From the NCBI GenBank assembly GCA_944393745.1, contig CALYBD010000005.1:11165-75164 (forward strand): a DNA stretch of 64,000 nucleotides. The letters run 5' to 3'. This document shows, in pieces, positions 10,181 through 33,724 of the stretch. Every line of letters begins with the position of its first letter. Position 1 is the stretch's first letter. The translations under genes were made by a program, and so were the position numbers. This stretch comes from an uncultured Alphaproteobacteria bacterium (GTDB lineage Bacteria > Pseudomonadota > Alphaproteobacteria > CAAGCB01 > CAG-977). Under the pieces are notes generated by a model. The model did not search any database, had not been told where the DNA came from, and worked only from the letters and a program-made list of their open reading frames with translations.

Positions 10181-11175
10181 CCGGTTTTGTTTATCCGATG
10201 ATGTTTTTGCTGCTGCCGCTGCCACTGTTGATGCGCGCCGTTTTGCCGCGTGTGGACGATAAAAACGAAGAAGCGCTGAAAGTACCGTTTTTTGATGATA
10301 TGCGTCGTTTGTCGCCGGTTGGCAGCCGTTCCGTTTTTACCGGGCTGTCTTTTCGGCGACTGTTGGGGGCATTGATTTGGATTTTGCTGGTTACGGCGGC
10401 GGCCGGTCCGCAATGGGTCGGGGAACCGTCAAAGGTTCCTTCCGAAGGGCGCAATCTGATGCTGGTTTTGGACATTTCAGGTTCAATGCAGGAGGCTGAT
10501 TTCACCGTCCGGGATCAGGCTGTGCGACGCTGGGACGCCGTGCAGGCCGTCGCCGACGCTTTCGTGAAAAAACGTCAAGGCGACAGGGTCGGCATTGTTT
10601 TGTTCGGCGAACGGTCTTATGTATATGTGCCGTTGACGTATGATTTAAAAACGGTTTCCGATTTGTTAAAAGAAGCCGATGTCGGCATGGCCGGTTCACA
10701 GACGGCGATCGGGGACGCCTTGGGGCTGGCCTTAAAAACGATGATTGACGTACCGGCTGAAAGTCGTGTTGTCGTCTTGTTGTCCGACGGGGCGGCGAAT
10801 GCCGGGGTGATGAAACCTTTGGAAGCGGCGGAACTGGCTGAAAAAATGGGGGTTAAAGTTTATACGATCGGGGCAGGATCCGATATGGTTCAGATGATGG
10901 GGTTGTTCGGTATGATGCAGATGCCGCGCGGCGATGAAATTGATGAAAAAACGCTGCAGGAAATCGCGCGCAAAACGGGCGGGCGATATTTCAGGGCAAA
11001 AAATACGCAGGAATTGCTTGAAATTTATCGGGAAATTGATCAATTGGAACCGGTTGTTAACGATGCCGTTTTTGTTCGTCCCGTCAAGACGTTGTTTTAT
11101 TATCCGTTGGCTGCGGCGTTTGCTTTGAGTGTTCTGGGCGGATTGCTGCTGACGGCCGTCAGGAGGACGCCATGA
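10177..11175 (+). CDS. batA: BatA, a VWA-domain membrane protein
   Basis: N-terminal TM helices and a vWFA MIDAS motif (LVLDISGSM...SQTAIGDAL...LLSDG). The likely start is the ATG at 10177 overlapping the upstream stop; the ORF track extends to 10159. Confidence 0.85.
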   Translation: MTGFVYPMMFLLLPLPLLMRAVLPRVDDKNEEALKVPFFDDMRRLSPVGSRSVFTGLSFRRLLGALIWILLVTAAAGPQWVGEPSKVPSEGRNLMLVLDISGSMQEADFTVRDQAVRRWDAVQAVADAFVKKRQGDRVGIVLFGERSYVYVPLTYDLKTVSDLLKEADVGMAGSQTAIGDALGLALKTMIDVPAESRVVVLLSDGAANAGVMKPLEAAELAEKMGVKVYTIGAGSDMVQMMGLFGMMQMPRGDEIDEKTLQEIARKTGGRYFRAKNTQELLEIYREIDQLEPVVNDAVFVRPVKTLFYYPLAAAFALSVLGGLLLTAVRRTP

Positions 11176-12983
11176 CGGAATTTCATTTTCTGCGCCCCGA
11201 ATGGTTTTGGGGCTTTGCCGTTTTTCTGCTGTTGCCGTTTTTGGCCAAAAAGACCCGATCCGGCGGAGGATTATGGCAGGCAATTTGCGATAAATTTTTA
11301 TTGCGATCCCAGTTGGTCAGCGGTTCCGGCGTACGTTTGTTCTGGCCGCTTTTTCTGATTTCCGTTTGTTGGATTATTGCTTTGCTTGCTTTGGCGGGGC
11401 CCGCATGGGAAAAATTGCCGCAGCCGGCCGTAAAAAAAGGAACCGATACTGTTTATCTGCTGGATATTTCCGTGTTTATGACGCCGACGGATATTAAGCC
11501 GTCCCGAATGAACAGGGCTTTGTTTAAAATGCATGATTTTCTGCAGGAAACAAAAGACGGACAGAACGCTTTGATTTTGTATGACAACGCGCCTTTTGTC
11601 GCCGTTCCTTTGACAACGGATCAAAAAGTCATAGATCAAATGCTGCCGACCGTTCAGGCCGGTATGATGGGCGGCCGTATGCCCAACGTTAACGCGGCGT
11701 TGCAAAAAGCCGGCGCGTTGCTGAAACAGGCCGGTGCCGCGGAAGGCCGGATTATTATGCTGGCCGGTTATTTATCCGATGATGAAATGCCGCAAACGCT
11801 GGCGACGGCGGAACAACTGCGAAAAGAAGGCTATACCCTGTCGGTTTTGGGAATCGGTTCAAAACACGGGGCGCCCCTTCAGATGGCAGACGGGGATTTT
11901 TTGATGCATCGCGGCAAGCCTGTATTGTCCGCATTGTCCGAACAAAATATGAAAAAAATTGCCGCTGCCGGCGCGGGCGTTTACCGTACAATCACTTTAA
12001 ATGAAAGCGATGTCCGGGCGCTTGTCGGGGAAAAATCACAGGCTGCGGCTGTTTTTGATGCCGAACCGCAAGACGAAATGCAGGCAGATACTTGGAAGGA
12101 TTTCGGCGCGGTTTTATGTATTTTGATTTTGCCTTTTGCCGCTTTCGGATATCGCCGAGGTTGGCTGGGCGGCTTGATCGTATTTGTTGTTTTTTCTTCC
12201 TCACCGGCTTTTGCCTGGTCCGTATCGGATTTGTGGATTCGTCCTGATCGCAAAGAGGCGGAACGCATTACCGCCGGAGAAAAACCCTCAAATCCTTCAA
12301 TATTTAAAGATAACGCCTGGTTGGGCGCTGCGGCCTATAAAGCCGGAGATTATCAAACGGCTGTTACGGCGCTGGCCGATCCGACAGACGCGGAAATGCG
12401 TTATAATCAGGGGAACGCTTTGGCTCAGGCCGGACAATATCGGCAGGCAATAGAAGCGTATAAAAAAGTGCTGGAAGAAAATCCGAATCACGTCGATGCG
12501 GCCTTTAATAAAAAATATTTGGAAGATCAACTGAAAAACAATCAACAGCAGCAGAACCAGGATCAGCAGCAACAACAGAACCAGGATCAACAGCAGCAGA
12601 ACCAGGATCAACAGCAACAACAGAACCAAGATCAACAGCAGCAACAGAACCAAGATCAGCAACAACAACAAAACCAGGATCAACAGCAACAACAGAACCA
12701 GGATCAACAGCAACAACAGAACCAGGATCAACAGCAACAACAGAACCAGGATCAGCAGCAGCAACAGAACCAGGATCAATCTGTATCGGCTGCGCAACAA
12801 CAACAGGAACAGTCGCAGCGTCCGCCGTCGGAAGAAAAGTCTTTGTCCGAACAGCAAACGGATCAGCAAGATCGGGAAAAACAGGAACAGCGTCAATGGC
12901 TCAGTGTGATCAAGGACGATCCGTCCGGTTTACTGCGTGAACGTATCCGCCGGCATAATTTAATTAAAGGAGGAAGAAGATAA
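11172..12983 (+). CDS. batB: BatB/BatC fusion: TM helices, VWA domain, TPR repeats, then a Q-rich repeat linker
   Basis: VWA motif (DISVFMTPTD), TPR repeats (AWLGAAAYKAGDYQTA..., YNQGNALAQAGQYRQAIEAYKK), then 11 copies of NQDQQQQQ. Operon context. Confidence 0.8.
   Translation: MTEFHFLRPEWFWGFAVFLLLPFLAKKTRSGGGLWQAICDKFLLRSQLVSGSGVRLFWPLFLISVCWIIALLALAGPAWEKLPQPAVKKGTDTVYLLDISVFMTPTDIKPSRMNRALFKMHDFLQETKDGQNALILYDNAPFVAVPLTTDQKVIDQMLPTVQAGMMGGRMPNVNAALQKAGALLKQAGAAEGRIIMLAGYLSDDEMPQTLATAEQLRKEGYTLSVLGIGSKHGAPLQMADGDFLMHRGKPVLSALSEQNMKKIAAAGAGVYRTITLNESDVRALVGEKSQAAAVFDAEPQDEMQADTWKDFGAVLCILILPFAAFGYRRGWLGGLIVFVVFSSSPAFAWSVSDLWIRPDRKEAERITAGEKPSNPSIFKDNAWLGAAAYKAGDYQTAVTALADPTDAEMRYNQGNALAQAGQYRQAIEAYKKVLEENPNHVDAAFNKKYLEDQLKNNQQQQNQDQQQQQNQDQQQQNQDQQQQQNQDQQQQQNQDQQQQQNQDQQQQQNQDQQQQQNQDQQQQQNQDQQQQQNQDQSVSAAQQQQEQSQRPPSEEKSLSEQQTDQQDREKQEQRQWLSVIKDDPSGLLRERIRRHNLIKGGRR
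12544..12779 (+). repeat. Imperfect 24 bp tandem repeat (aaccaggatcaacagcaacaacag), 11 copies, encoding (NQDQQQQQ)n inside batB
   Basis: Read directly from the sequence; one unit is 21 bp, and caa/cag wobble differences are the only variation. Confidence 0.9.
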
Positions 12984-22452: not shown

Positions 22453-23157
22453 ATGGAAAAAAGTATGTCAAATGCATCTGTTCGCCAAAATATCAAGAAA
22501 ACCGCGGCTTTGGGAATGCCTGCGGAAAACGGCGGGCGTTTGTCCATGTTTATGTGGTTATCGCGTTTTTTCAGTGTATTGTGCTTTTTTTTAGTAACTT
22601 CGCTTGCCGTTCTGGCATTGTCATTAATACATATTACCAAGGAATTGGAAGTAAATTCCGTTTTGGTAACAGCGCCGACGTATTCGGAAAATCTGGCTTA
22701 TTTCGAACCGCTGCACCCGGATATGCCCGCGATGGATATTCTGGCGGAAATGTTCGTGCGCCAGTATGTGACGGCCAGAAATAACGTTTGGCGTCATGCT
22801 CAGGAAATGCGCCGTATGTGGGGACGCGGCGGTATTGTTCGTTATATGTCGACACCTGCTGTATATGAAGAATTCGCCCGTCGGGAAGTCCCCAGATACT
22901 TTCCCGATCCGGCACAGCCGCCAACGGTTATGGTTGAAACGGATATTAAACGGATTATTAAAGAGGGATGGAACAGCTGGCAGATTTTCTTTGATACCCG
23001 TCGAATGGATACATCGATCAGTATGCCGGTTGTTGAACATTGGATTGCTACCATACAGTTTCGTTATTATTCCGATAACGCCATTATGTTTTTCCGTTTG
23101 CGCAATCCGTTGGGATTTACGGTAACGCAGTATCATTTGGCTCGTCAGAAAATATAA
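22453..23157 (+). CDS. virB8: T4SS VirB8-like protein, paralog 1 (bitopic, NTF2-like periplasmic domain)
   Basis: N-terminal TM helix (FFSVLCFFLVTSLAVLALSLI) and a C-terminal RLRNPLGFTVTQYHL matching the VirB8 NPLGF-V--Y signature. Collinear with paralog 2. Confidence 0.7.
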   Translation: MEKSMSNASVRQNIKKTAALGMPAENGGRLSMFMWLSRFFSVLCFFLVTSLAVLALSLIHITKELEVNSVLVTAPTYSENLAYFEPLHPDMPAMDILAEMFVRQYVTARNNVWRHAQEMRRMWGRGGIVRYMSTPAVYEEFARREVPRYFPDPAQPPTVMVETDIKRIIKEGWNSWQIFFDTRRMDTSISMPVVEHWIATIQFRYYSDNAIMFFRLRNPLGFTVTQYHLARQKI

Positions 23158-23180
23158 TTGTCAGGGAGAGGAGCAAAAAG

Positions 23181-23379
23181 AATGAAAAAAAGACTGTTCG
23201 GAAGAATATTTTTTATAACGGCTTTATGCGCTGTTGTAAGTGCCTGCGGCTCTATTTACGAAAAGGAACCTGTCGGGATCGGTCCCGATATTTCGGAATT
23301 AAAGCGTTCTCCGTGCGCTTGCATGCTTTTAAAGCTGCCGGCGGGCTTGCCCGACTGGATAACGACGGCTCAGGGATAA
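23181..23379 (+). CDS. virB7: Small lipoprotein, VirB7-like by size and position
   Basis: 66 aa; the lipobox, RBS and placement between two virB8 paralogs match the rvh-type cluster layout as I recall it. No strong sequence signature beyond that. Confidence 0.4.
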
Positions 23380-23393
23380 CAGGATAAAAAAAT

Positions 23394-24164
23394 ATGCCAA
23401 CTCCGGTAAAATCAAAACAACAGCTGACAGTGAAAACGCCTGAAAACAACCCGGTTCAAAAGGGTTCCGTTTCCGGCGGATCCAATTTGAAAAAAAATGT
23501 TGTTCGTCAACCCGAACGTGAAGAAATTTCAATTGATCAGCTGCGGGAACGGCGTTATTTGTGGACGGCGCGGGCTTTTGCAATCGTGTCGGCCGTGGCG
23601 TTATGCGTTAATTTGGTTTTGTTGTTGGCGATTATTCATATTATGCCGCTGAAACGCGTTGAACCGTTTTTGCTGACGTTTCAGAACAGAGACGAACAGG
23701 TTGTAAAAATTCGTCCTTTGGCAAAGGATATGGCGGCGGAAGATATTATTTCCGAAGCCATGATCAGACAGTATGTGTTGTTAAGAAATACGATGATTTC
23801 GGACGTTGACGAGATGTCTTTCCGTTGGGGGCAGGACGGTCCTTTGCGCTGGATGTCTTCGGCGCAGGTGTATAACCAGTTTGCCAAAACGGTCAAGGAT
23901 TGGCTGTCAAGAATTAAACTGGAAGGCTTAACGCGCGAAGTCCGAATTGAATCCGTTGTTCGAAATCAAAACATCTGGCTGGTTTATATTGTGACGCGCG
24001 ATATGCTGCCGGAAGCCGAAGAACCCGCTATTTCGCGTTGGCGTATCCGTTTGTCGGTCAAATACTTTGCCAAAGATCAAAAAGAAGTCAAATATATTGA
24101 CCGGTTAAAGAATCCTTTGGGGTTTGCCGTTGACGGATATGCGATTGAAAGTGCTAACGATTAA
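23394..24164 (+). CDS. virB8: T4SS VirB8-like protein, paralog 2
   Basis: TM helix (AFAIVSAVALCVNLVLLLAII) and C-terminal RLKNPLGFAVDGYAI. An EAMIRQYV region parallels paralog 1 (EMFVRQYV). Confidence 0.75.
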   Translation: MPTPVKSKQQLTVKTPENNPVQKGSVSGGSNLKKNVVRQPEREEISIDQLRERRYLWTARAFAIVSAVALCVNLVLLLAIIHIMPLKRVEPFLLTFQNRDEQVVKIRPLAKDMAAEDIISEAMIRQYVLLRNTMISDVDEMSFRWGQDGPLRWMSSAQVYNQFAKTVKDWLSRIKLEGLTREVRIESVVRNQNIWLVYIVTRDMLPEAEEPAISRWRIRLSVKYFAKDQKEVKYIDRLKNPLGFAVDGYAIESAND

Positions 24165-24176
24165 AGAAGGTGTCCC

Positions 24177-25706
24177 GTGAAAAGAAATTTGAAAATTCGC
24201 CTTTTTGCTTTTGTTTCGTTGTCTTTTTGTTTTTTGCCGCAGGTCGTTTCGGCACAACAGACGGCTGCGCGTGAATCCATGGATGCGGCGATTGAACAGT
24301 CAAACGGGCAGTATTCTGAAATCGATATGCCGTTTTGGTCTTTGGGAATGCAACAAAAAGCATGGAATAAACCGATGGAACATATGGGGGAAGGCCAGTC
24401 CAAGCCGGGATATTCCAGATATTTTTGGACGCCTGATCTGGTTTTGCCGCTGCGGATTCGGGAAGGTATGCATACGCTGATTAACTTTCCGTCATGGGAA
24501 TTGATTGAAAATGTTTTTCTGGGAAATGAAAGTGCTTTCGGGGCACAGAAGGTCGCGCAGAATGCGTTGATGGTTTTTGCGGCAAATGTTGACCTGGTCG
24601 GTATGGATACGAATATGATTGTTTTCGGCCGTTCCGGGAACAGATATGTTTTTTATTTAAGAAGCGAAACCTTTAATACGGACAGAATAACCAATTCCGT
24701 CGTGGATATCGTTGTCAATGATGCAAAGTTTGTTCCCGATGATTCCGGGCAAACGCCGTTTGCTTCCGGTGCAGTCGGATCCGGCGCCGTTTCTTTTGGC
24801 GGGTCAGGCGGTTTCGGCGGCGCTTTGCGCGGCGCAAAAAAGACAACAACAAAAAACGGAACGGAAGACTGGTTGGCCGATATTGAAGTCGACCCCGAAA
24901 AATTGCGTTTTGATATTGATGTGTTTGTGCCTAATCCGGCGGATATGGAAATTGCGCCCGAACGCGTCTGGCGTGATGAGATTTTCACGTATATTGATTT
25001 CGGTCCGAAGGCGTTGACAATGACGGAACGTCCGATTGTTAATCTTTTGTCTCAGGGATCCGAAGTGCCGATCGGCTTCAGGACGCGCGGCCCCAACGGC
25101 CGACTGATGGTTGTGGAAGGCATCGGCGATTTGGTTTTGCGTAACGGGAAACGGATTTTATGCCTGAAGATCAGAAAAGATCCTGCTTTTGGCACCGAAT
25201 GGGTAGAATACGAAAAATCCGTTCAGCCGGAATGGTCGCCGGGGCCGATGATAACAACGGGCGGCTATAATGCTCCGTCTGCCGGCGGTGTTGCAAACAA
25301 TGCCGATAATACAAATATGCAGGCGGCAAATGCCATGATGATGCAGGCAGGACCGAACGGTATATTATCGGCCAATCAGATTGCTCAGTTTTCACAGCAG
25401 GGACGGGACAGTTCCCGCATGATCCGCCGTTATCGCGACACGTCTATGGAAACGATTGCGGTTGAACTGGGATCAGACAGCGAAATTGCTCCGTTGGAAC
25501 AGAAATGGGACAATATTTCACGTAAAAACAGGGATTTGCTTAATGCGTATGAACCGTATTACTCTGTTGACGCAGTCGCGGAAGGCGAATCAAAAGATTT
25601 ATTCCGTCTGCGCATCGGTCCGGTCGACAGCATTGAAGCAGGGGATAAACTATGTAATCAATTAGGTCGCCGCGGGGTGACGTGTATGGTTGTGCGGACA
25701 CAATGA
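24177..25706 (+). CDS. virB9: T4SS VirB9-like outer-membrane core protein, extended with a Gly/Ser-rich linker and a C-terminal SPOR-like segment
   Basis: GTG start with RBS; signal peptide (FLPQVVSA). A VirB9 N-domain pattern (HTLINFPSWELIENVFLGNE...MVFAANVDLVGMDTNMIVFGRSGNRYVFYL) and a C-domain pattern (YIDFGPK...IVNLL...GRLMVVEGIGDLVLRNGKRILCLKI). The terminal LFRLRIGPVDSIEAGDKLCNQLGRRGVTCMVV resembles a SPOR second half. Confidence 0.7.
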   Translation: MKRNLKIRLFAFVSLSFCFLPQVVSAQQTAARESMDAAIEQSNGQYSEIDMPFWSLGMQQKAWNKPMEHMGEGQSKPGYSRYFWTPDLVLPLRIREGMHTLINFPSWELIENVFLGNESAFGAQKVAQNALMVFAANVDLVGMDTNMIVFGRSGNRYVFYLRSETFNTDRITNSVVDIVVNDAKFVPDDSGQTPFASGAVGSGAVSFGGSGGFGGALRGAKKTTTKNGTEDWLADIEVDPEKLRFDIDVFVPNPADMEIAPERVWRDEIFTYIDFGPKALTMTERPIVNLLSQGSEVPIGFRTRGPNGRLMVVEGIGDLVLRNGKRILCLKIRKDPAFGTEWVEYEKSVQPEWSPGPMITTGGYNAPSAGGVANNADNTNMQAANAMMMQAGPNGILSANQIAQFSQQGRDSSRMIRRYRDTSMETIAVELGSDSEIAPLEQKWDNISRKNRDLLNAYEPYYSVDAVAEGESKDLFRLRIGPVDSIEAGDKLCNQLGRRGVTCMVVRTQ

Positions 25707-28700
25707 ACGAAGATTTACTCAGCTCATCAGACAGATATTTAAAAAAGTCCAACAGAACACTGTTGATTGTCGGGATTATAGCCTTTTTGGCTTTTCTGAC
25801 AGGCGTCATCGTGCTGTTGAGCGGAGAAGAAGAACGTAAAAAAGATGCCGAAGTAACGATTGAAGGATCAGCGGAAAGCTCCAGCAGTATCGTTGGCGGC
25901 GACGCCGATACCTTTAGTCTGCCCGAAGAGGCAACAGCATCTACGGTGCGTTTGGTCGTTACCCCCGAAACCATGCGGTTTGATCAGGTCGTTCTGGGAA
26001 CAATGGCGGAAGGAACATTGACGTTATCGGCTTCTTCCGGGCGGATCAGCGTGACGGCAATCGAATTTGAAAATAAACAGGAAGACGGCTTTGTTCTGGA
26101 AAATAAATGTCGTAAAGATATTGTCCTGACCGGAGACGTCACCTGTAACGTTGTCGTGCGCTGGGAACCGAAAACGGCGCGGACGATTCAGTCTAATCTG
26201 GCTGTTCGCTGGACAGATGAAACGTTCGGCGGTATCGGGCGAAAAGTTATTGTTCCCATTTCGGCAATGGCAATTGATACCAGTATGTGCGGCGTTTGTG
26301 ATGAAGTGCCGGGCAGCAGCGGATCCATGCTGGATCAGCTGCGTCAAAAAGGTCGTGTCATTTTGGGGCCTGACGGGAAACCGATCGGATATGCCGACGA
26401 AAACGGTGTTGTTTACGGGTTGGACGGCAAAAGAATCGGAACTTTGCGCGAAGACGGAACCGTTGTTGATGATCAGGGCTATGTGATCGGTGTTGCGGAA
26501 GGCAGCAGAATAGCCATCGGTCCGAACGGGGAAATCCTGGGTACGATTCTGCCGGACGGCCGCGTAATAGATAAAGACGGCCGTTTGATCGGTTATGCTT
26601 TGCCGGACGGTACCATTGTTGATGAAAACGGAAACGTGATCGGATCTGCGATTAAAACGGGAATCGCGTATGATAAAAACGGCAATCCGATCGGGCGGAT
26701 TATGCCGGACGGGACGGTTGTCGACGATGAAGGCAACGTGATCGGCTATGTGAATCCGGACGGGACGATCGTTGATGCCAACGGTAATATTATCGGATCC
26801 GTTGCGCCGCAGGGAACGGTGGTTGACGCTTCGGGAAAACCGCTGGGAATTGTTATGCCGGACGGGACGGTCGTTGATGCTGACGGCAATATTATCGGCC
26901 GGACTTTACCAAACGGCTTTGTCGTTGACAGAGACGGCAATATTATCGGCCGTGTTGTCAAAGAAGGATTGGCAATCGGGCCCGGTTGCCGCATGATCGG
27001 CAGAATCAGTACGGACGGTTCCGTTATGTCTTCAAACAGACAGGTGGGGCGTTTAACGGCTTCCATGACCGTTGTCGATATGGCGGGCAATCCGATCGGC
27101 GGCTATGTTGAAGAAGGCGCTCTGATTGACTGGGCGGGGAAAATTATCGGTAAGGTCGATCAGGACGGACACCCCGTTTCTTTTAAAGGGGATCCTCTGG
27201 GGTGTTTAACGCCGTACGGGACGGTTGTTAACGATTCTGAAGAAATTATTGCCGCCGTTTTGCCGAAAGGAACGGTTGTCGGAACGCAGTGCGGCGTTGT
27301 CGGACGTGTTATGCCGGACGGCAGTGTTGTCGGCGATGGTCAGATTAAAGGACGCATTTTGCCGGATAAATCATTTTTATCGACAGAAGGGAAAATTGCG
27401 GGCGCTTTGGCGCGTCAGAATGTCGGTGTCGGACCGGGGTGTATGTCTTTGGGATATGTCAATCTTGACGGACAGGTTATGACAGCCAAGGGCGAACTGG
27501 TCGGCTGTCTGGCGGCGAACGGGGAAATCCTTGATAATCAAAAAGTCGTTTTGGGAAAAATATTGGATTCCGCCGTTGCCATAAATCCCGACGGGCGGGT
27601 TGTCGGCGTAATGGATCCGGTCGGCAGAATTCAGGATAAAGAAGGAAAAATTTTAGGCTGTGCGGATCCTGACGGGCTGGTTATTAACTCCAAAAACGAA
27701 TCGGTCGGCATAATGATGCCGACGGGCGGTGTTTTGGATCGTGACGGGCGTACAATCGGCTGGGTTATGCCGGACGGTTCTGTTTCAAACGGAAAAAACA
27801 GCACTGTCGGTAAAGTCATGCCGGACGGGACTGTCATTGACCTGACCGGACAAACGGTTGCTCGTGTCGCACCGTATAAAGGACTGGCTTTAAGAGGCAG
27901 CTGTGAACCGGTCGGCAACGTTTTGATTGACGGGCGTGTCGTTGATAATGAATTTAAACGGACGGCTTATATCCGCATGGACGACAGTCTGGCAAACGAA
28001 GCCGGTGATTTTGTCGGCCGTATCGCTTATGGCGCCAGAGGCATCAGTGCCAAAGACGTTTATTTGGGGGCAACGGGAAATGACGGCACGTTATATAATC
28101 CGGCCGGCGAAAAAATCGGTTGCTTGCGCCCGGATTCTTTATTCGTTGACGCAGAAAATAAATTTTTGGGCGCGGCTCTTCCCGAAGGAGTGGCTGTTAA
28201 TGATAAATCAGAACTGTATGCCCGAGGCGATTCGATCGCCAAAGCGCTGGATCTGAAAGGATCGGAATTTATCGGTTCGGTGACGCTCAGCGGCTTTATC
28301 AAAGAAGGCGACAGAATTTCCGGCGGAATTATTCCGGACAGAGCTGATGTTTTGGATATTAAAACCAGTGAAAAAATCGGTCGTTTATTGCCTGACGGTA
28401 CGGCGCTGGATTTGCTCAGCCGTTATTTGGGACGGTTAAGAATGCCCAGTGGGGAAATTGTCAATAAAGACGGCCGCGTCGTCGGTAAGATCTTTGTCGG
28501 TATGCGCCAAGTGATCGGCCCGAACGGAGAAATTCTGGGGGTGGTGATGCCGGACGGTACCGTGGTAGATGCTTCGGGTCGCGTTATCGGCAAAGCCGAT
28601 TTGAACGGTAAAGTCGTTGATAAAGACGGACGGGTCATCGGTGAAGTCATTCCGGTCGGCCAGCCGATTATCGGCCCTGACGGGAAAATTATCGGTTACG

Positions 28701-31700
28701 TCGGTGTCGACGGCCAGATTGTTGACAAAGACGGGAATCCCGTTTTAGGTCCCGACGGAAAGCCTTTGCGTTATCGTGCCGGCGGTTCTGTCGTTGAAGA
28801 CGGCGGAGAAGTGATCGGAAAAATCGGCGAGACTCTGGAACGTCTGGTTTATGATGAAAACGGCAATGTGATCGGCCGGGTATTGCCGGACGGAACGGTC
28901 GTTGATTTGGAAGGCAACGTGATCGGCACGATGCGTCCGGACGGCACGGTGGTGGATAAAGACGGCAATGTGATCGGCAGGGCAGGTCAGCCGGAACGTC
29001 TGGTTTATGATGAAAACGGTAATTTAATCGGTCGCGTATTGCCGGACGGAACGGTCGTCGATCTGAAAGGCAACGTGATCGGCCGTGTTCAGGACGACGG
29101 TACGGTGACGGCTTTGGGCTCTAAAGTGATCGGCTATACGGTCAAAGACGGTCTGGGACTGAACTTTAAAAATGAAATTATCGGTAAAATCAATTCTTCC
29201 GGTCAGCTTAAAGAACCCGGTTCGGATAAATCTTTGGGTTTTTTGCAGGCAGATGACACCATTACGGACGCAACGAATACCGTTATCGGCAAAGGGGTTG
29301 TTAATGCCGTTCCCATTGGTCTGCAATGTCAGATGCTGGGGACGATTGACGATAACGGGCAGGTTATTGATACAACGGGACGGCAGATCGGCCGGCTGAA
29401 TTATGATCGTTCTTTGGTTAATGCTTCGAATGCTCAGATCGGTTTGGCTTTGGGGCAGGAATCCATTATTAATGAACCGTGTGAGATTATCGGGCAGATT
29501 ACGACCGAAGGAAAAGCAGTCGATACCAAAGGTCAGGAAATCGGCTGTGTTGATTTTGAAGGGCTGGTAAAAGATAAAAACGGAAAACGACTGGGACGAA
29601 TCGTTCAGAAAGGACAGGTGCGCGGCCCCGATGATCAGATTATCGGCAGGATCGTTGCCAACGGTGAAGCGTTGGGATCTCAGGGGGACGTGTTAGGGTG
29701 TTTTTCGATTGACGGTGCCGTTTTGGATAAAAATAAAAAAATCCTGGGGGTTTCTGCCGACATGAAATATGCCATTGACGATCAGGGGAAAGTCATTGCT
29801 CATATTTTGGGCGGCACGTACGGCGTTAATCCTGCAGGCGGATCTTTTGTCGGTATGTTAAACGGGCAAAATCTGATCGGCGCAGAAAATCGTCAGTTGG
29901 GCGTACTTGTTCCTGCCGGCAGAAAAGTCATTGCAACGGACGGTAAGATTGTCGGAACCGTTCTGCCGCGCGGGCAGGTTCATAATGACCGCGGAGAAGA
30001 TGTCGGTTATGCCACTTCGTCCATGCGAGTTTTAACCGCAGATCGTAAATTTTTGGGACGCGTCGTCCCGATCGGCGAAGAATGTAAAGACGGTAAAAAC
30101 AACGTTGTCGGTACCGTCCACTTTGACGGCACGATTATTGACGAAAGAAAACAGGTCTTAGGACGTTTGCTGGCCAGCGGCCAGGCTTTGGACAATTCCG
30201 GTGCTCATTTATGTATGATTTCTTTGATCAGTACAAATGATGACGGGTCTTTGTTCCCGAAAGGGTTGATCGGAAAAATGGTTTACGGTCCGGACGGAAA
30301 GCCGTTGGGTGTTATCGGTGAAGACGGGTTTATTCGTGATGCAAACGGTAATATTATCGGACGTGTTTTGCCGGACGGCACGGTCGTCGATTTGGACGGC
30401 AACGTGATCGGCAAGGCTTATCCGAAAGGGGCTGTTTTCAGTCCTGACGGTAAATTTTTGGGTATTGTTGACGCAGACGGGTATTTGCGGGACGAAAACG
30501 GCAATATCATCGGCAGAATGTTGCCGGACGGTACCGTTGTCGATATGAACGGTAACATTATCGGCCGGGCTTTGCAGGAAGACGGTATTGTCGATTCAAA
30601 AGGGAATTTCCTGACAAAAGCAGGCGAAGACCGTTTGGTTTATGATGCCAACGGCAACGTGATCGGACGTGTTTTGCCGGACGGTACCGTTGTTGATTTA
30701 AAGGGGAACGTTATCGGCAGAATGTTGCCGGACGGTACGGTCGTTGATGCAAACGGCAATGTGATCGGTCGGGCGGGGCCGCCCGAGCGTTTGGCCTATG
30801 ATGCGAACGGCAATGTGATCGGTCGGGTATTGCCGGACGGTACCGTTGTTGATTTTAAAGGCAATGTAATCGGAAGAGTACAGCCCGACGGGACAATTGT
30901 TGATGCGACCGGGAAAGTTATCGGTCGGGCCGGGCCGCCTGTTGAGGCAAAAAATGTTCGTATTGCTGTCGGGCGTGACGGTAAATTTTTGGGTGTTGTC
31001 GGTGAAGACGGTCTTGTCCGTGACGAAAACGGCAATGTGATCGGCCGGGTATTGCCGGACGGAACGGTTGTTGACATGAACGGAAATGTAATCGGTTCTG
31101 TGATTGAAGGAGAACCGATGCGTGATGCAAACGGCAATATTATCGGTGTTATCATGCCGGACGGCCGCGTTGTTGATTTAGACGGCAATGTGATCGGTCG
31201 CATTAATGCAAACGGGGAAATCGTTGATGCGGACGGAACGGTTTTGGGCACATGGCGCGGCGGGAAACTGACGGCAATGAGCGATAAGCTGCAGAAAAAA
31301 CGTTTTGCGTTCGGCAAGGACGGCAAAAGAATCGGTATGATTATGCCGGACGGAACGGTTGTTGATGAAAACGGCAATATTATCGGTCGCGTTGATGAAG
31401 ACGGTAATGTGGTCGATTTAGACGGCAACATCATCGGGACGGTTGAAGAACCGTCTGCGGGAGGGCCGGCAGAAGAAGATAAAAAAGAAGGCAGTGTTTC
31501 CATTTTTGGTGCTTTTGATCCGGAAAATTACCGGTATCGCGGTAAATCTTTGGGATCCGGCGGCGGTACGGGAAAAGGGGAACGTTATGATCCCGCCCGC
31601 ATAAAACAGCTTCGGGCATTGCAATTGGCTTATCGTCGTCAGATCAGACCCGGACGGGGGATCGGCATTGCCTCGACCGAAGAAGATTTGCTGAAAAAGC

Positions 31701-32728
31701 AAAAACGCAGCAAAAGTTGGGCTGATTTGGGTGTGCTGAAGAATGTATCATCATATCGTGTCAATATGGATAATATGATTTTGGCGGATAAAGCCATACC
31801 GGCCGTTTTGGCGCGTTCCATTGATACGGAACAGGAAGATATTCCCATTTCCGCAATTGTTGAACGCAACATTTATTCGGAATCGGGACGTAAAATTATT
31901 ATTCCCGCCGGCAGCCGTGTTATTGGCGAACTCAGCGGTTCTTCGGCCAGTGAAGAAGTCGGAGCGGCTTCAAAAGTCGAAATTTCCTGGACACGCCTGA
32001 TTCGTCCGGACGGTGCGGCGTTCCAGTTTGACGAAGGATCTTCGGGTGATGCTTCCGGTCGTGCGGGCGTCGGCGCGTATATGGACCGACAGTTGATGAA
32101 GAAATACGGACTGCCGATGGTTCAGTCGACAATTACTTCTGCAATTTTGTATGCCATGGCAACGGATGACGCGGCCGAAGTCGGATCAGAAGGTGAAGTT
32201 GCCATGTCGGGTCGTCAGCAGGCGGCTGAAGATGCACGTACCAGATTTTCCGATACGATGCAGCAGATTTTTGATGATATCATCAGTGAAACGTCACAGT
32301 TAAAAACGCGCTTGTTTGTTCCTTCCGGTACACGAATTACGATTTTTGCAAACGCGGATTTATGGCTGCGCAGTGAAGCAGAAGATGAAGATGAAGCGTC
32401 TATCGGCAAGAAAGATGTTTTGATTGATCCAGATAAAGATGATGACAGAAATGTTGTTGATGATCCTTCTACGATTTCTTCGGGTACGACGACTCCGCAT
32501 GATCCGAACGCTCAAAATGTCCAAAATGATCCAAATAACTTGCAACAACAGCAGCAAATTTACTATAATAATTATGCTGGTCAGCAGGCGCCGCAACAGC
32601 AACAGCCTCCGCAGGGCAGATTGATCGACAGTAATAAGCAGCAACAACAACAGCAGCAGCCACTTCCGCCGCCGATTATACAGGAAAAGAAAGAAGAACC
32701 GGTTGATCCCGTTCCCGAACTTTTCTAA
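25703..32728 (+). CDS. virB10: Giant T4SS VirB10-like protein (about 2,340 aa): N-terminal TM anchor, a beta-rich domain, an internal repeat array of about 1,700 aa, a canonical VirB10/TrbI C-terminal domain, and a Q/P-rich tail
   Basis: Likely ATG at 25703 overlapping the virB9 stop (ATGA); the track starts at the GTG at 25682. TM helix LLIVGIIAFLAFLTGVIVLL. The C-terminal block IIPAGSRVIGELSG...KVEISWTRLIRPDGAAFQFDEGSSGDASGRAGVGAYMDRQLMKKYG matches the conserved VirB10/TrbI signature (IPAG-R-IGE...W-RLI-PDG....G.D..GRAG..G). Confidence 0.8.
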   Translation: MNEDLLSSSDRYLKKSNRTLLIVGIIAFLAFLTGVIVLLSGEEERKKDAEVTIEGSAESSSSIVGGDADTFSLPEEATASTVRLVVTPETMRFDQVVLGTMAEGTLTLSASSGRISVTAIEFENKQEDGFVLENKCRKDIVLTGDVTCNVVVRWEPKTARTIQSNLAVRWTDETFGGIGRKVIVPISAMAIDTSMCGVCDEVPGSSGSMLDQLRQKGRVILGPDGKPIGYADENGVVYGLDGKRIGTLREDGTVVDDQGYVIGVAEGSRIAIGPNGEILGTILPDGRVIDKDGRLIGYALPDGTIVDENGNVIGSAIKTGIAYDKNGNPIGRIMPDGTVVDDEGNVIGYVNPDGTIVDANGNIIGSVAPQGTVVDASGKPLGIVMPDGTVVDADGNIIGRTLPNGFVVDRDGNIIGRVVKEGLAIGPGCRMIGRISTDGSVMSSNRQVGRLTASMTVVDMAGNPIGGYVEEGALIDWAGKIIGKVDQDGHPVSFKGDPLGCLTPYGTVVNDSEEIIAAVLPKGTVVGTQCGVVGRVMPDGSVVGDGQIKGRILPDKSFLSTEGKIAGALARQNVGVGPGCMSLGYVNLDGQVMTAKGELVGCLAANGEILDNQKVVLGKILDSAVAINPDGRVVGVMDPVGRIQDKEGKILGCADPDGLVINSKNESVGIMMPTGGVLDRDGRTIGWVMPDGSVSNGKNSTVGKVMPDGTVIDLTGQTVARVAPYKGLALRGSCEPVGNVLIDGRVVDNEFKRTAYIRMDDSLANEAGDFVGRIAYGARGISAKDVYLGATGNDGTLYNPAGEKIGCLRPDSLFVDAENKFLGAALPEGVAVNDKSELYARGDSIAKALDLKGSEFIGSVTLSGFIKEGDRISGGIIPDRADVLDIKTSEKIGRLLPDGTALDLLSRYLGRLRMPSGEIVNKDGRVVGKIFVGMRQVIGPNGEILGVVMPDGTVVDASGRVIGKADLNGKVVDKDGRVIGEVIPVGQPIIGPDGKIIGYVGVDGQIVDKDGNPVLGPDGKPLRYRAGGSVVEDGGEVIGKIGETLERLVYDENGNVIGRVLPDGTVVDLEGNVIGTMRPDGTVVDKDGNVIGRAGQPERLVYDENGNLIGRVLPDGTVVDLKGNVIGRVQDDGTVTALGSKVIGYTVKDGLGLNFKNEIIGKINSSGQLKEPGSDKSLGFLQADDTITDATNTVIGKGVVNAVPIGLQCQMLGTIDDNGQVIDTTGRQIGRLNYDRSLVNASNAQIGLALGQESIINEPCEIIGQITTEGKAVDTKGQEIGCVDFEGLVKDKNGKRLGRIVQKGQVRGPDDQIIGRIVANGEALGSQGDVLGCFSIDGAVLDKNKKILGVSADMKYAIDDQGKVIAHILGGTYGVNPAGGSFVGMLNGQNLIGAENRQLGVLVPAGRKVIATDGKIVGTVLPRGQVHNDRGEDVGYATSSMRVLTADRKFLGRVVPIGEECKDGKNNVVGTVHFDGTIIDERKQVLGRLLASGQALDNSGAHLCMISLISTNDDGSLFPKGLIGKMVYGPDGKPLGVIGEDGFIRDANGNIIGRVLPDGTVVDLDGNVIGKAYPKGAVFSPDGKFLGIVDADGYLRDENGNIIGRMLPDGTVVDMNGNIIGRALQEDGIVDSKGNFLTKAGEDRLVYDANGNVIGRVLPDGTVVDLKGNVIGRMLPDGTVVDANGNVIGRAGPPERLAYDANGNVIGRVLPDGTVVDFKGNVIGRVQPDGTIVDATGKVIGRAGPPVEAKNVRIAVGRDGKFLGVVGEDGLVRDENGNVIGRVLPDGTVVDMNGNVIGSVIEGEPMRDANGNIIGVIMPDGRVVDLDGNVIGRINANGEIVDADGTVLGTWRGGKLTAMSDKLQKKRFAFGKDGKRIGMIMPDGTVVDENGNIIGRVDEDGNVVDLDGNIIGTVEEPSAGGPAEEDKKEGSVSIFGAFDPENYRYRGKSLGSGGGTGKGERYDPARIKQLRALQLAYRRQIRPGRGIGIASTEEDLLKKQKRSKSWADLGVLKNVSSYRVNMDNMILADKAIPAVLARSIDTEQEDIPISAIVERNIYSESGRKIIIPAGSRVIGELSGSSASEEVGAASKVEISWTRLIRPDGAAFQFDEGSSGDASGRAGVGAYMDRQLMKKYGLPMVQSTITSAILYAMATDDAAEVGSEGEVAMSGRQQAAEDARTRFSDTMQQIFDDIISETSQLKTRLFVPSGTRITIFANADLWLRSEAEDEDEASIGKKDVLIDPDKDDDRNVVDDPSTISSGTTTPHDPNAQNVQNDPNNLQQQQQIYYNNYAGQQAPQQQQPPQGRLIDSNKQQQQQQQPLPPPIIQEKKEEPVDPVPELF
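26350..31450 (+). repeat. In-frame tandem repeat array inside virB10: on the order of 100 units of about 17 aa (consensus LPDGTVVDxxGNVIGRx, two G-x-(V/I)-(V/I) half-units), with higher-order units of about 50 aa
   Basis: Visible directly in the translation (for example RVLPDGTVVDLKGNVIGRMLPDGTVVDANGNVIGRAGPPERLAYDANGNVIGR...) and at DNA level, with related copies at 28848-29085 and 30625-30950. The repeat generates many spurious antisense ORFs. Confidence 0.9.
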
Positions 32729-32746
32729 ATTGAAAAGGATATTGAA

Positions 32747-33724
32747 ATGAGTATGGATTCTTTTCAGGTTTTAAGATCGACATTGCGTTATCTGTCATAT
32801 TGGTATGAACAAGATAACGTCGAAGAAGTCGCGATTAACCGTCCGAACGAAATTTGGTTGCGTTTGCGCGGACGCAGGGCTCATCCTTGGGCATGCCAGC
32901 AGGACGCCAATCTGTCCAGAACGTATCTGACGGACATCATGCATATTATCGCCAACACGTTTGAACTGCCGTTTGATCCCGAACAGGGATCGCCGGCCGT
33001 GTATGCCACGCTGCCGGGCGATCACCGTTTTACGGGAATTGCGGGCAAAAACGTTATGTATGATAACGAGGATCTGACCGGCGGTATTGCCATGTGCGTT
33101 CGTGTTCATTCCGATGATGTGAAATTCGGATTGGGGGATTACGGCCTGAAATCGGGGGAACGCCTGCAAAAGCTTAATAAATTGAAAGAAGTTGAAAATC
33201 CGGAAGATCCGTATGAACGCCTGATTTTATCAATTAAGCGCGGCGACCATATTTTGGTTTCCGGGGCAACGGCAACCGGTAAAACGACATTTTTGAATAA
33301 CCTGCTGACCATTTTGGATTCGCATAAACGGGTAATTACGATTGAAGATACCCGCGAATTAATTGTGCCGCATCCCAACCATGTACATTTGGTGTTATCG
33401 CGTACGGAACAAACAAACACAATGACATATCCGAAATTGATTGACCTGGTTGTTCGTTTTACGCCGGATGCGATTATCGGCGGGGAAATTTCAACGGCTA
33501 ATGCCGGGGCGTTGTGGGAATTGATGGGATCCGGGCATGACAACTGCTTTGCGACAATTCACGCCGAAAATTCCGAAGCGGCCTATAAAGCGTTTACGGA
33601 TCGTATTCTGCATTGCTATCCGACGATTGACCGTGAAAAAACAATTGCCGAAATGCATGATAAGCTGCGGGTGGTTCAGATCAATCGTCAGGGAAATATC
33701 CGTGCCGTGACAGAAGTGACCTAA
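32747..33724 (+). CDS. virB11: T4SS ATPase VirB11 (traffic ATPase)
   Basis: Walker A GATATGKTT, Asp box IEDTRELIV, His box GSGHDNCFATIHA; 325 aa; directly downstream of virB10. Confidence 0.85.
   Translation: MSMDSFQVLRSTLRYLSYWYEQDNVEEVAINRPNEIWLRLRGRRAHPWACQQDANLSRTYLTDIMHIIANTFELPFDPEQGSPAVYATLPGDHRFTGIAGKNVMYDNEDLTGGIAMCVRVHSDDVKFGLGDYGLKSGERLQKLNKLKEVENPEDPYERLILSIKRGDHILVSGATATGKTTFLNNLLTILDSHKRVITIEDTRELIVPHPNHVHLVLSRTEQTNTMTYPKLIDLVVRFTPDAIIGGEISTANAGALWELMGSGHDNCFATIHAENSEAAYKAFTDRILHCYPTIDREKTIAEMHDKLRVVQINRQGNIRAVTEVT

What the first reader, a model, noticed from the sequence alone, without database searches (positions are those of the whole stretch)
28840..30960. DNA-level higher-order repeats within virB10 that could support in-frame recombination and length variation
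Blocks of about 150 bp recur with high nucleotide similarity. One example is gaacgtctggtttatgatgaaaacgg...gtattgccggacggaacggtcgt at 28848 and again at 28993. Related copies lie at 30625-30950, each beginning (g/c)gtttgg(t/c)(t/c)tatgatgc(c/g)aacggcaatgtgatcgg. Such direct repeats in phase with the reading frame are the substrate for RecA-mediated deletion or duplication, the mechanism that makes CagY a molecular rheostat. The locus may be similarly variable between cells or strains.
Basis: partly seen in the sequence, partly recalled or inferred. Interest (0 to 1): 0.6.

Follow-up and report, generated by a model that had tools for sequence, protein, structure and literature searches.

The report
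Copy-variable repeat modules in giant VirB10
A 2,341-residue type IV secretion protein of an uncultured gut alphaproteobacterium is built from about 100 beta-hairpin repeats, and the two flagged pairs of 156-bp repeats are the modules that related species have gained or lost in frame, though slowly, not as a fast CagY-like switch.

Summary
ORF 25703-32728 is a giant VirB10: an N-terminal membrane anchor, about 100 17-codon beta-hairpin ("beta-flower") repeats, and a C-terminal TrbI domain. It lies between virB8/virB9 and virB11. Two tandem pairs of 156-bp (52-codon) modules sit at 28838-29149 (A1, A2) and 30629-30940 (B1, B2). They are 73-81% identical, and their longest tandem exact runs are 27 and 26 bp. 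One 44-bp run links A1 to 31025. Codon-shuffle controls show more DNA identity than the peptide repeat alone gives.

Nine orthologues from other species differ from the window almost only by whole-module in-frame indels at these two sites (A: 0, 2 or 3 copies; B: 0, 1 or 2). Sister species carry within-species 51-, 59- and 79-aa indels, with junction homologies of 13 and 37 nt measured for two of them. So repeat-mediated length change is real.

The CagY "rheostat" analogy is not supported. Exact-repeat density is 7.4/kb against 43-52/kb in cagY. The window's allele is identical on six contigs. Three related species show no module-scale length variant, and family length stays within 2112-2609 aa. 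Change is evolutionary and slow. Population-level heterogeneity could not be tested.

The parts
25703..32728 (+). Giant virB10 homologue, 2341 aa from ATG 25703 (the mechanical ORF starts at GTG 25682, 2348 aa)
   Evidence: ORF list. Pfam TrbI, Bflower_2, Bflower, DUF3659 and RHS_repeat. Public gene calls use the 2341-aa product. The C-terminal domain matches ComB10 2BHV, TrwE and CagY chains.
26372..31450 (+). Array of about 100 17-codon (51-nt) beta-hairpin repeats, consensus NGNVIGRVLPDGTVVDx, aa 224-1916 (ATG numbering)
   Evidence: the repeat finder families D1-D11. 63 profile hits, mostly 17 aa apart. Bflower_2 scores 452.6 bits in 18 stretches. AF2 gives all-beta hairpins.
28838..28993 (+). 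Module A1 (52 codons, ERLVYDENGNVIGRVLPDGTVVDLEGNVIGTMRPDGTVVDKDGNVIGRAGQP)
   Evidence: The A1+A2 pair is absent in L002 and L008-L010, present twice in most ingroup species and three times in L006.
28994..29149 (+). Module A2, 73% nt identity to A1, with the same codon at 29 of 35 identical residues
30629..30784 (+). Module B1
   Evidence: B copy number is 0 (L002), 1 (L004-L008, L010) or 2 (window, L003).
30785..30940 (+). Module B2, 81% nt identity to B1. B1+B2 together are predicted as one 104-aa, 12-strand domain.
   Evidence: AF2 pLDDT 93.6, pTM 0.74.
28856..28899 (+). Longest exact direct repeat in the gene (44 nt), first copy, inside A1
   Evidence: It exceeds every one of 200 codon shuffles (maximum 29). 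The two sites are more alike in the window (52/57) than in any orthologue (43-48/57), which suggests a short intragenic conversion.
31025..31068 (+). Second copy of the 44-nt exact repeat, 2169 nt (723 codons) downstream
30500..31011 (+). Mosaic tract about 96% identical to orthologue L003 (3 mismatches in 30721-31011), against a 79% gene-wide background. It covers B2 and part of B1.
   Evidence: Only the window and L003 carry two B modules.
31778..32368 (+). C-terminal TrbI/VirB10 barrel domain
   Evidence: Pfam PF03743 at aa 2033-2229 (GTG numbering), 106.7 bits. PDB sequence hits to ComB10, TrwE, CagY and VirB10.
22453..24164 (+). Two virB8 paralogues (22453-23157 and 23394-24164)
   Evidence: Pfam VirB8, 53.9 and 78.6 bits.
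24177..25706 (+). virB9/CagX homologue with a C-terminal SPOR domain
   Evidence: Pfam CagX 51.7 bits and SPOR 24.4 bits.
32747..33724 (+). virB11 ATPase
   Evidence: Pfam T2SSE. NCBIfam VirB11 145.8 bits, below the equivalog cut-off of 249.95.

Best explanation
The flagged blocks are 52-codon super-repeats, each three beta-hairpins long, inside the roughly 1,700-residue beta-hairpin (beta-flower type) array of a giant VirB10. This array lies between the inner-membrane anchor and the outer-membrane TrbI domain.

The modules are both products of and substrates for occasional unequal recombination or replication slippage between in-frame direct repeats. There is also short gene conversion between the A and B sites, and exchange of segments between lineages. 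Each event adds or removes whole 3-hairpin modules, or 6-hairpin domains, without breaking the reading frame.

The process is slow. It is visible between species and as rare polymorphisms within some species. Total protein length stays constrained. It is not a fast, population-level switch of the CagY type.

Shown: the repeat anatomy, DNA identity above the codon null, module copy-number differences among orthologues, junction homologies in sister species, and the mosaic tract. Inferred: the molecular mechanism (RecA-dependent or not), the direction of individual events, and any functional effect of module number.
For: Anatomy.

DNA identity beyond the peptide constraint.

Orthologues from nine other species (80-88% and about 61% aa identity) differ from the window almost only by indels of 51, 52, 105 or 106 aa at window aa 1036-1141 and 1644-1749. 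These are modules A and B.

A neighbour-joining tree on non-repeat parts puts L007 (A x2, B x1) at the base of the ingroup and L002 (0, 0) inside it. This implies both gains and losses.

Within-species evidence:
- In the P0001 species, 7 sequences of 2290 aa and 6 of 2211-2212 aa are 98.7-99.9% identical.
- The long allele carries 237-nt tandem units that are 90.7% identical, with a 37-nt junction homology.
- Short alleles have two different crossover points, aa 1488-1511 and aa 1549-1561.
- A 51-aa indel in the P0002 species has a 13-nt junction.

Gene conversion signals:
- L007's A1 is 87% identical to its own B module but 78% to the window's A1.
- Exact runs of 33-35 nt lie at the A-to-B spacing of 1791 nt in L004 and L005.
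- The 44-nt run in the window is lineage-specific.

Inter-lineage exchange: the window and L003 are about 96% identical over 30500-31011 against 79% overall.

Slow tempo:
- The allele is identical on 6 contigs.
- Three related species show no module-scale length variant.
- 105 near-full-length family members at about 27-33% identity span only 2112-2609 aa, median 2213.
Against: No reads or isolates of the source organism were available. Low-frequency length variants within its population cannot be excluded.

Within-species sampling for the window's own species may represent a single clone (0 nt differences over 10-11 kb).

All comparison sequences are short-read metagenome assemblies.

The NJ tree has short internal branches, so the polarity of some events is uncertain.

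The excess of synonymous identity could partly reflect position-specific codon preference rather than recent conversion.
Confidence: 0.75

Rival explanations
1. CagY-like contingency locus. Frequent recombination among the modules generates coexisting length variants within a population and tunes type IV secretion activity.
For: It is a VirB10 homologue with a huge in-frame repeat region. All 52 exact repeats of at least 16 nt are in frame. Module copy number varies among relatives. One sister species has two length alleles at similar frequency, with two crossover points.
Against: Repeat density is 7.4/kb with mean 18.6 nt, against 43-52/kb and 35-48 bp in cagY. Tandem modules are only 73-81% identical, with exact runs of 26-27 nt. 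These resemble the runs of 25-29 nt in the species without length variants, not the 60, 46 and 37 nt in the polymorphic one. The allele is identical on 6 contigs. Species about 20% diverged in DNA differ by 0-1 module. The repeats are unrelated to CagY repeats (no CagY repeat family among the Pfam hits).
Confidence: 0.1
2. Pure protein-level repetition. The DNA similarity is only a by-product of a strongly conserved peptide repeat and has no role in recombination.
For: A-versus-B module pairs are close to synonymous saturation (z = 1.2-2.4). Only one exact run exceeds 30 nt.
Against: Codon shuffles never reach the observed repeat load. A1/A2 share codons far above expectation (29/35 against 14.6). 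Indels among orthologues fall exactly on module boundaries. Real junctions carry 13 and 37 nt of homology. A mosaic tract and paralogues more similar than orthologues indicate DNA exchange.
Confidence: 0.1
3. Assembly artefact. The repeats, or the copy-number differences among relatives, come from mis-assembly of short reads in a repetitive gene.
For: All sequences are metagenome assemblies. L020 has only 2.7x coverage.
Against: Exact repeats in the window are at most 44 nt, shorter than the k-mer sizes seen in the relatives' contig names (k119, k141). Two assemblies from different samples are identical to the window over 10-11 kb. Both alleles of the P0001 species recur in many independent assemblies. 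Tandem units there differ at about 9% of positions. The window-L003 tract carries about 20 mismatches, so it is not a simple chimera.
Confidence: 0.03

Closest known systems
Helicobacter pylori CagY (Cag7), the VirB10 homologue with FRR/MRR repeat regions
   Same: It is a VirB10-family C-terminal domain (CagY chains hit at E 4e-7 to 1e-5) preceded by a very large repeat region. All direct repeats are in frame. Recombination between repeats yields in-frame deletions or duplications (PMC2194252), as seen here between species and in sister species.
   Different: The repeat type is unrelated: 17-aa beta-hairpins, with no CagY repeat family among the Pfam hits. Exact-repeat density is about 6-fold lower and the runs about half as long. 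There is no evidence of within-host or strain-to-strain hypervariability. The organism is an uncultured gut alphaproteobacterium, and the genes sit among housekeeping genes rather than on a pathogenicity island.
Legionella/Coxiella DotG (IcmE), the VirB10-like type IVB core protein with a central repeat region (from my own knowledge, not tested here)
   Same: It is a VirB10-like C-terminal domain with an expanded, repetitive middle region.
   Different: DotG repeats are reported as pentapeptide-type. No pentapeptide family appears among the Pfam hits at E <= 0.01. The neighbours here are type IVA genes virB8, virB9 and virB11.
Beta-flower proteins (Pfam PF21784/PF21785/PF21786, clan CL0395; Durairaj et al. 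2023, PMC10584680)
   Same: There are strong sequence matches to Bflower_2 (452.6 bits) and Bflower (144.6 bits). The hairpin repeat carries a [DNEQ]xxG tip motif. AF2 predicts all-beta hairpin domains with no PDB fold match, as that paper reports for the fold.
   Different: The proteins described are single small domains of about 96 residues, 8-12 strands. Here about 100 hairpins are concatenated and fused to a T4SS core subunit. I found no paper linking this fold to VirB10.
Rhs/YD-repeat proteins
   Same: Sequence matches to RHS_repeat (74.4 bits) and the TIGR01643 YD repeat (101 bits). Rhs and teneurin shells are the top local Foldseek hits.
   Different: TM-scores are only 0.1-0.17, so only the hairpin is shared. 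No Rhs core or toxin domain was detected.
Canonical VirB10/TrbI (ComB10 2BHV, TrwE of R388, Xanthomonas VirB10)
   Same: C-terminal barrel domain (E 1.4e-17 to ComB10), an N-terminal membrane anchor, and position between virB9 and virB11.
   Different: Canonical proteins are about 380-450 aa with a short proline-rich linker (from my own knowledge). This one is 2341 aa, and NCBIfam equivalog cut-offs are not reached (95 against 220 bits).

Membership tests
VirB10/TrbI type IV secretion core subunit | C-terminal TrbI/VirB10 beta-barrel domain | tested here: met
   Pfam PF03743 scores 106.7 bits (cut-off 35) at aa 2033-2229. PDB sequence hits to ComB10, TrwE, CagY and VirB10.
VirB10/TrbI type IV secretion core subunit | Gene order with other T4SS core genes (virB8, virB9 upstream; virB11 downstream) | tested here: met
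   VirB8 x2, CagX/VirB9 and T2SSE/VirB11 flank the gene. The same order is seen in relatives.
VirB10/TrbI type IV secretion core subunit | N-terminal inner-membrane anchor | tested here: inconclusive
   The hydrophobic stretch LLIVGIIAFLAFLTGVIVLLSG at aa 25-46 (GTG numbering) is read directly from the translation and conserved in orthologues. No topology predictor was run.
VirB10/TrbI type IV secretion core subunit | Full-length equivalog score (NCBIfam VirB10 / ComB10) | tested here: not met
   95.1 against 220 bits and 114.3 against 300 bits. The domain is homologous, but the protein is not an equivalog of canonical VirB10.
CagY-type recombination 'rheostat' | VirB10 homologue with a large repeat region in which all direct repeats are in frame | tested here: met
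   52 of 52 exact repeats of at least 16 nt are spaced by multiples of 3.
CagY-type recombination 'rheostat' | Very dense, long exact DNA repeats (43-52 per kb of at least 16 nt; mean 35-48 bp) | tested here: not met
   7.4 per kb, mean 18.6 nt, one run above 30 nt, against PMC2194252 Table I.
CagY-type recombination 'rheostat' | Length alleles differ between strains and within one host population | tested here: inconclusive
   The window allele is identical on 6 contigs. Three related species show no module-scale length variant, and three have rare or common indel alleles. No read-level data exist for the source population.
CagY-type recombination 'rheostat' | Repeat changes alter T4SS function | not testable with these tools
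CagY-type recombination 'rheostat' | Repeats homologous to CagY FRR/MRR motifs | tested here: not met
   Pfam hits at E <= 0.01 are only Bflower_2, DUF3659, Bflower, TrbI and RHS_repeat.
Beta-flower fold (Pfam clan CL0395) | Sequence match above the gathering score to PF21784 or PF21785 | tested here: met
   PF21785 scores 452.6 bits (cut-off 38) and PF21784 scores 144.6 bits (cut-off 25).
Beta-flower fold (Pfam clan CL0395) | Beta-hairpin 'petals' with a [DNEQ]xxG tip motif | tested here: met
   The consensus NGNVIGRVLPDGTVVD carries NGN.IG and PDG motifs. DSSP on the models shows regular hairpins.
Beta-flower fold (Pfam clan CL0395) | Closed 4-, 5- or 6-fold symmetric shallow barrel | tested here: inconclusive
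Rhs/YD-repeat toxins | YD-repeat sequence signature | tested here: met
   RHS_repeat scores 74.4 bits (cut-off 22) and TIGR01643 scores 101.4 bits (cut-off 15.8).
Rhs/YD-repeat toxins | Rhs shell fold with core domain and C-terminal toxin | tested here: not met
   Foldseek TM-scores to Rhs shells are 0.1-0.17. No Rhs core or toxin family was hit. The C-terminus is a TrbI domain.

The most novel reading that the evidence does not exclude
Uncultured gut Alphaproteobacteria carry an undescribed class of type IV secretion system. Its VirB10 spans the envelope with a string of about 16 six-hairpin beta-flower domains. The number of these domains would be adjusted by in-frame module recombination, intragenic conversion and exchange between species. 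That would make it a second, independently evolved modular-VirB10 system analogous to CagY, with module number under selection, for example for envelope span or host or partner contact.
Probability: 0.2. Interest if true: 0.7.

Novelty: new variant of a known kind. Interest (0 to 1): 0.5.

Why it matters
CagY has been the only well-documented case in which a T4SS core subunit changes length by recombination between in-frame DNA repeats.

This locus shows the same genetic logic in an unrelated repeat fold (beta-flower hairpins) and an unrelated lineage (uncultured gut Alphaproteobacteria), but at an evolutionary tempo. Comparative data show that whole modules are the unit of change.

The locus also links the recently named, function-less beta-flower fold to a defined cellular machine. 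It gives T4SS structural biology a natural series of VirB10 variants differing by 3 or 6 hairpins.

For annotation and metagenomics, it warns that length differences in this gene are real alleles, not assembly noise.

Tried and rejected
- A protein search with the N-terminal 226 aa returned only short fragments and gave no length data.
- An exact look-up of the window protein in the cluster table failed, so no 90%-identity cluster for the window's own species could be listed.
- The JGI metagenome scan added four same-species replicates of other species, all length-invariant, but none of the window's species.
- The Rfam and tRNA scans of the window were empty.
- A regular-expression parse of the hairpins failed and was replaced by a profile scan.
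- Literature searches for VirB10 with DUF3659, with gut Alphaproteobacteria, or with RF32 found nothing.
- I considered the antisense ORF 30796-31503 and judged it an unsupported by-product of the repeat. Only the + strand frame has domain hits.
- I considered that the window-L003 high-identity tract is an assembly chimera. I rejected this because the tract still differs at about 20 positions and the window version is reproduced in two samples.
Full report
**1. What is at the coordinates**

The flagged interval lies inside one long ORF, 25682-32728 on the + strand. Public gene calls start it at ATG 25703, giving 2341 aa. I use ATG numbering unless stated.

Pfam places a TrbI/VirB10 domain at the C-terminus (106.7 bits, cut-off 35). 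It covers most of the rest with beta-flower families: Bflower_2 at 452.6 bits in 18 stretches and Bflower at 144.6 bits. DUF3659 and RHS/YD-repeat matches overlap these.

The C-terminal 440 aa hit solved ComB10, TrwE, CagY and Xanthomonas VirB10 chains. Upstream lie two virB8 paralogues and a virB9/CagX homologue with a SPOR domain. Downstream lies virB11.

Beyond these the window holds housekeeping genes: RhlE-type helicase, esterase, TrkH, UvrB, RecJ, homoserine dehydrogenase and PFK. This is therefore a chromosomal, partial T4SS operon. "virB10" is a correct call at the domain level. The NCBIfam equivalog cut-offs are not reached.

**2. The observation**

The gene is built from a 51-nt (17-codon) unit with consensus NGNVIGRVLPDGTVVDx. 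The repeat finder shows 25 clear copies. A profile made from them finds 63 units between aa 224 and 1916, mostly 17 aa apart.

Two tandem pairs of a 156-nt (52-codon) module lie on top of this array:
- A1 at 28838-28993 and A2 at 28994-29149
- B1 at 30629-30784 and B2 at 30785-30940

The quoted strings are present.

Identities are 73% (A1/A2), 81% (B1/B2) and 79% (A1/B1). The longest exact runs between tandem modules are 27 and 26 nt. The longest in the gene is 44 nt, linking A1 (28856) to 31025.

**3. Is the DNA similarity more than the peptide repeat would give?**

Yes, moderately.
- I shuffled synonymous codons among positions with the same residue, 200 times. The longest exact repeat averaged 20.5 nt and never exceeded 29. 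Pairs of at least 20 nt averaged 0.83, against 12 observed.
- A1/A2 use the same codon at 29 of 35 identical degenerate residues, with 14.6 expected at saturation (z = 5.2).
- B1/B2 do so at 26 of 44, with 17.2 expected (z = 2.8).
- A-versus-B comparisons are near saturation.

It is not met for the gene as a whole, but it is nearly met for the flagged tandem pairs.

**4. Comparison with cagY on its own metric**

Aras et al. counted exact direct repeats of at least 16 nt. The cagY middle repeat region has 235-302 of them, with mean size 35-48 bp. The cagY gene as a whole has 43-52 per kb. All are in frame. One observed deletion used a 156-bp identical repeat. They reported the rearrangement as RecA-independent (PMC2194252).

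This gene has 52 such pairs, mean 18.6 nt, 7.4 per kb, all 52 in frame. Other 7-kb pieces of the window have 0-2. The one exception is a piece holding a 24-nt microsatellite-like array. The gene is clearly repeat-rich, but about six-fold poorer than cagY, with runs about half as long.

**5. Relatives: the decisive evidence**

A genome scan with the C-terminal region found orthologues in 13 species-representative genomes. All appear to be uncultured gut or rumen Alphaproteobacteria MAGs; two carry other taxon names and are probably mis-binned. Nine full-length orthologues could be aligned.

Against the six closest (80-88% aa identity), the window differs almost only by indels of 51, 52, 105 or 106 aa. 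These fall at two places, aa 1036-1141 and aa 1644-1749, which are modules A and B.

| Module | 0 copies | 1 copy | 2 copies | 3 copies |
|---|---|---|---|---|
| A | L002, L008-L010 | none | window, L003, L004, L005, L007 | L006 |
| B | L002 | L004-L008, L010 | window, L003 | none |

L009 has a 228-aa deletion spanning the B region.

A neighbour-joining tree on non-repeat columns places L007 at the base of the ingroup and L002 inside it. Both gains and losses must therefore have occurred. The internal branches are short, so polarity is provisional.

**6. Evidence that DNA exchange, not only indels, acts here**

(a) The window and L003 are 79% identical over the gene. They are about 96% identical over 30500-31011, with 3 mismatches in 30721-31011. 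These are the only two genomes with two B modules. An imported segment is the simplest reading. A chimeric assembly is unlikely, because about 20 differences remain and the window version is reproduced in two samples.

(b) L007's A1 is 87% identical to its own B module, but 78% identical to the window's A1. L004 and L005 carry exact runs of 35 and 33 nt at the A-to-B spacing of 1791 nt.

(c) The 44-nt run in the window joins two sites that are 52/57 identical here. The same sites are 43-48/57 identical in every orthologue. This pattern fits short intragenic conversion.

**7. Within-species variation**

Sister-species clusters at 90% identity or more give a direct view.

| Species group | Lengths seen (aa) | Notes |
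|---|---|---|
| P0004 | 2201 in 14 of 15 listed | the other, 2202 aa, is 94% identical and differs only by 1-2-aa indels; L010 and L024 also 2201 |
| P0003 | 2203 in 15 of 15 listed | L008 and L023 also 2203 |
| L004 | 2292 in 3 of 3 | |
| P0001 | 2290 (7) and 2211-2212 (6) | 98.7-99.9% identity |
| P0002 | 2205 and 2154 | 51-aa indel |
| P0005 | 2202, 2203 and 2142 | 59-aa indel |

In the P0001 species, the long allele carries 237-nt tandem units that are 90.7% identical. The junction homology is 37 nt. Short alleles show two different crossover points, so events there are recurrent. The 51-aa indel in the P0002 species has a 13-nt junction. The 59-aa indel junction was not examined at DNA level.

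Exact-repeat load tracks this behaviour. The polymorphic long allele has runs of 60, 46 and 37 nt at the unit spacing. The invariant species reach at most 25-29 nt. The window's tandem runs (27 and 26 nt) resemble the invariant class, although its total repeat count is higher.

The window's own protein is found unchanged on 6 contigs. Two loci from different samples are identical to the window over 10-11 kb. This probably samples one clone, so it is weak evidence on strain diversity.

**8. Family-wide constraint**

The full-length search returned 870 relatives. Among the best 120, 105 are near full length and span 2112-2609 aa (median 2213), at only about 27-33% identity to the window. Such length conservation across deep divergence argues that total array size is under selection. 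Module changes are small excursions of 2-5%.

**9. Structure**

AF2 on aa 1525-1850 gives uninterrupted beta-hairpins (mean pLDDT 74.5). Low-confidence linkers split it into three blocks of about 100 aa, and the middle block is B1+B2.

B1+B2 alone is predicted with pLDDT 93.6 and pTM 0.74 as a 12-strand domain. No PDB fold matches it globally (TM of 0.33 or less; only local hairpin similarity to Rhs/YD shells). This agrees with what the paper defining the beta-flower fold reported (PMC10584680).

**10. Verdict**

These modules really are the units of in-frame length change in this gene family, driven by homology at their boundaries. Everything measurable points to a slow, evolutionary process under a length constraint, not a CagY-like rheostat. 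"RecA-mediated" remains an assumption.

I found no publication describing this giant beta-flower VirB10 family. The gene family itself is the more novel object. The repeat-recombination behaviour is a new variant of a known kind.

Noticed in passing
window 12552-12779: A 24-nt tandem repeat, 9.6 copies, 89% matches (unit CAGAACCAGGATCAACAGCAACAA), inside the VWA/TPR (BatB-like) ORF 11172-12983. It is a far better slippage substrate than the virB10 modules.
   Followed up: partly
window 32400-32725: The VirB10 tail after the TrbI domain is Q/N/P-rich with short 6-9-nt tandem repeats. It shows small indels of 3-24 aa among orthologues. This is a second, minor length-variable zone.
   Followed up: partly
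L011 1977-11278; L012 and L013 2286-11284; L026; L027: In more distant relatives (43-44% identity) the giant VirB10 is split into two overlapping ORFs. One is an N-terminal anchor plus repeats (1588-1691 aa). The other has its own signal-like N-terminus, repeats and the TrbI domain (1416-1428 aa).
   Followed up: no
window 24177-25706: The virB9/CagX homologue carries a C-terminal SPOR (peptidoglycan-binding) domain at aa 463-507.
   Followed up: no
window 30500-31011 vs L003: A mosaic tract about 96% identical to the L003 orthologue, against 79% gene-wide, with 3 mismatches in 30721-31011. L003 (BRZ_DM) and a contig identical to the window (BRZ_N) have sample names with the same BRZ prefix, perhaps from one study.
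   Followed up: yes
window 22453-33724: Only virB8 x2, virB9, virB10 and virB11 are present, flanked by housekeeping genes. Among the ORFs scanned, no virB1-7 or virD4 homologue was found in the 64-kb window, so the T4SS genes appear to be scattered in the genome.
   Followed up: partly
L009 and L012 (record titles): Contigs carrying this alphaproteobacterial virB10 are filed under Limosilactobacillus gorillae and Bacteroidaceae bins. They are probably mis-binned.
   Followed up: no
window 25970-26230 (aa 91-178 of the GTG-start ORF): A weak match of the pre-repeat N-terminal region to the NCBIfam 'choice-of-anchor D' domain (E 0.0015, below cut-off). This may be an Ig-like module before the hairpin array.
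   Followed up: no
window 30796-31503 (- strand): A 235-aa antisense ORF lies inside the repeat array. It is probably a by-product of the periodic codon pattern. No evidence that it is a gene was sought beyond noting that domain hits lie on the + strand.
   Followed up: no
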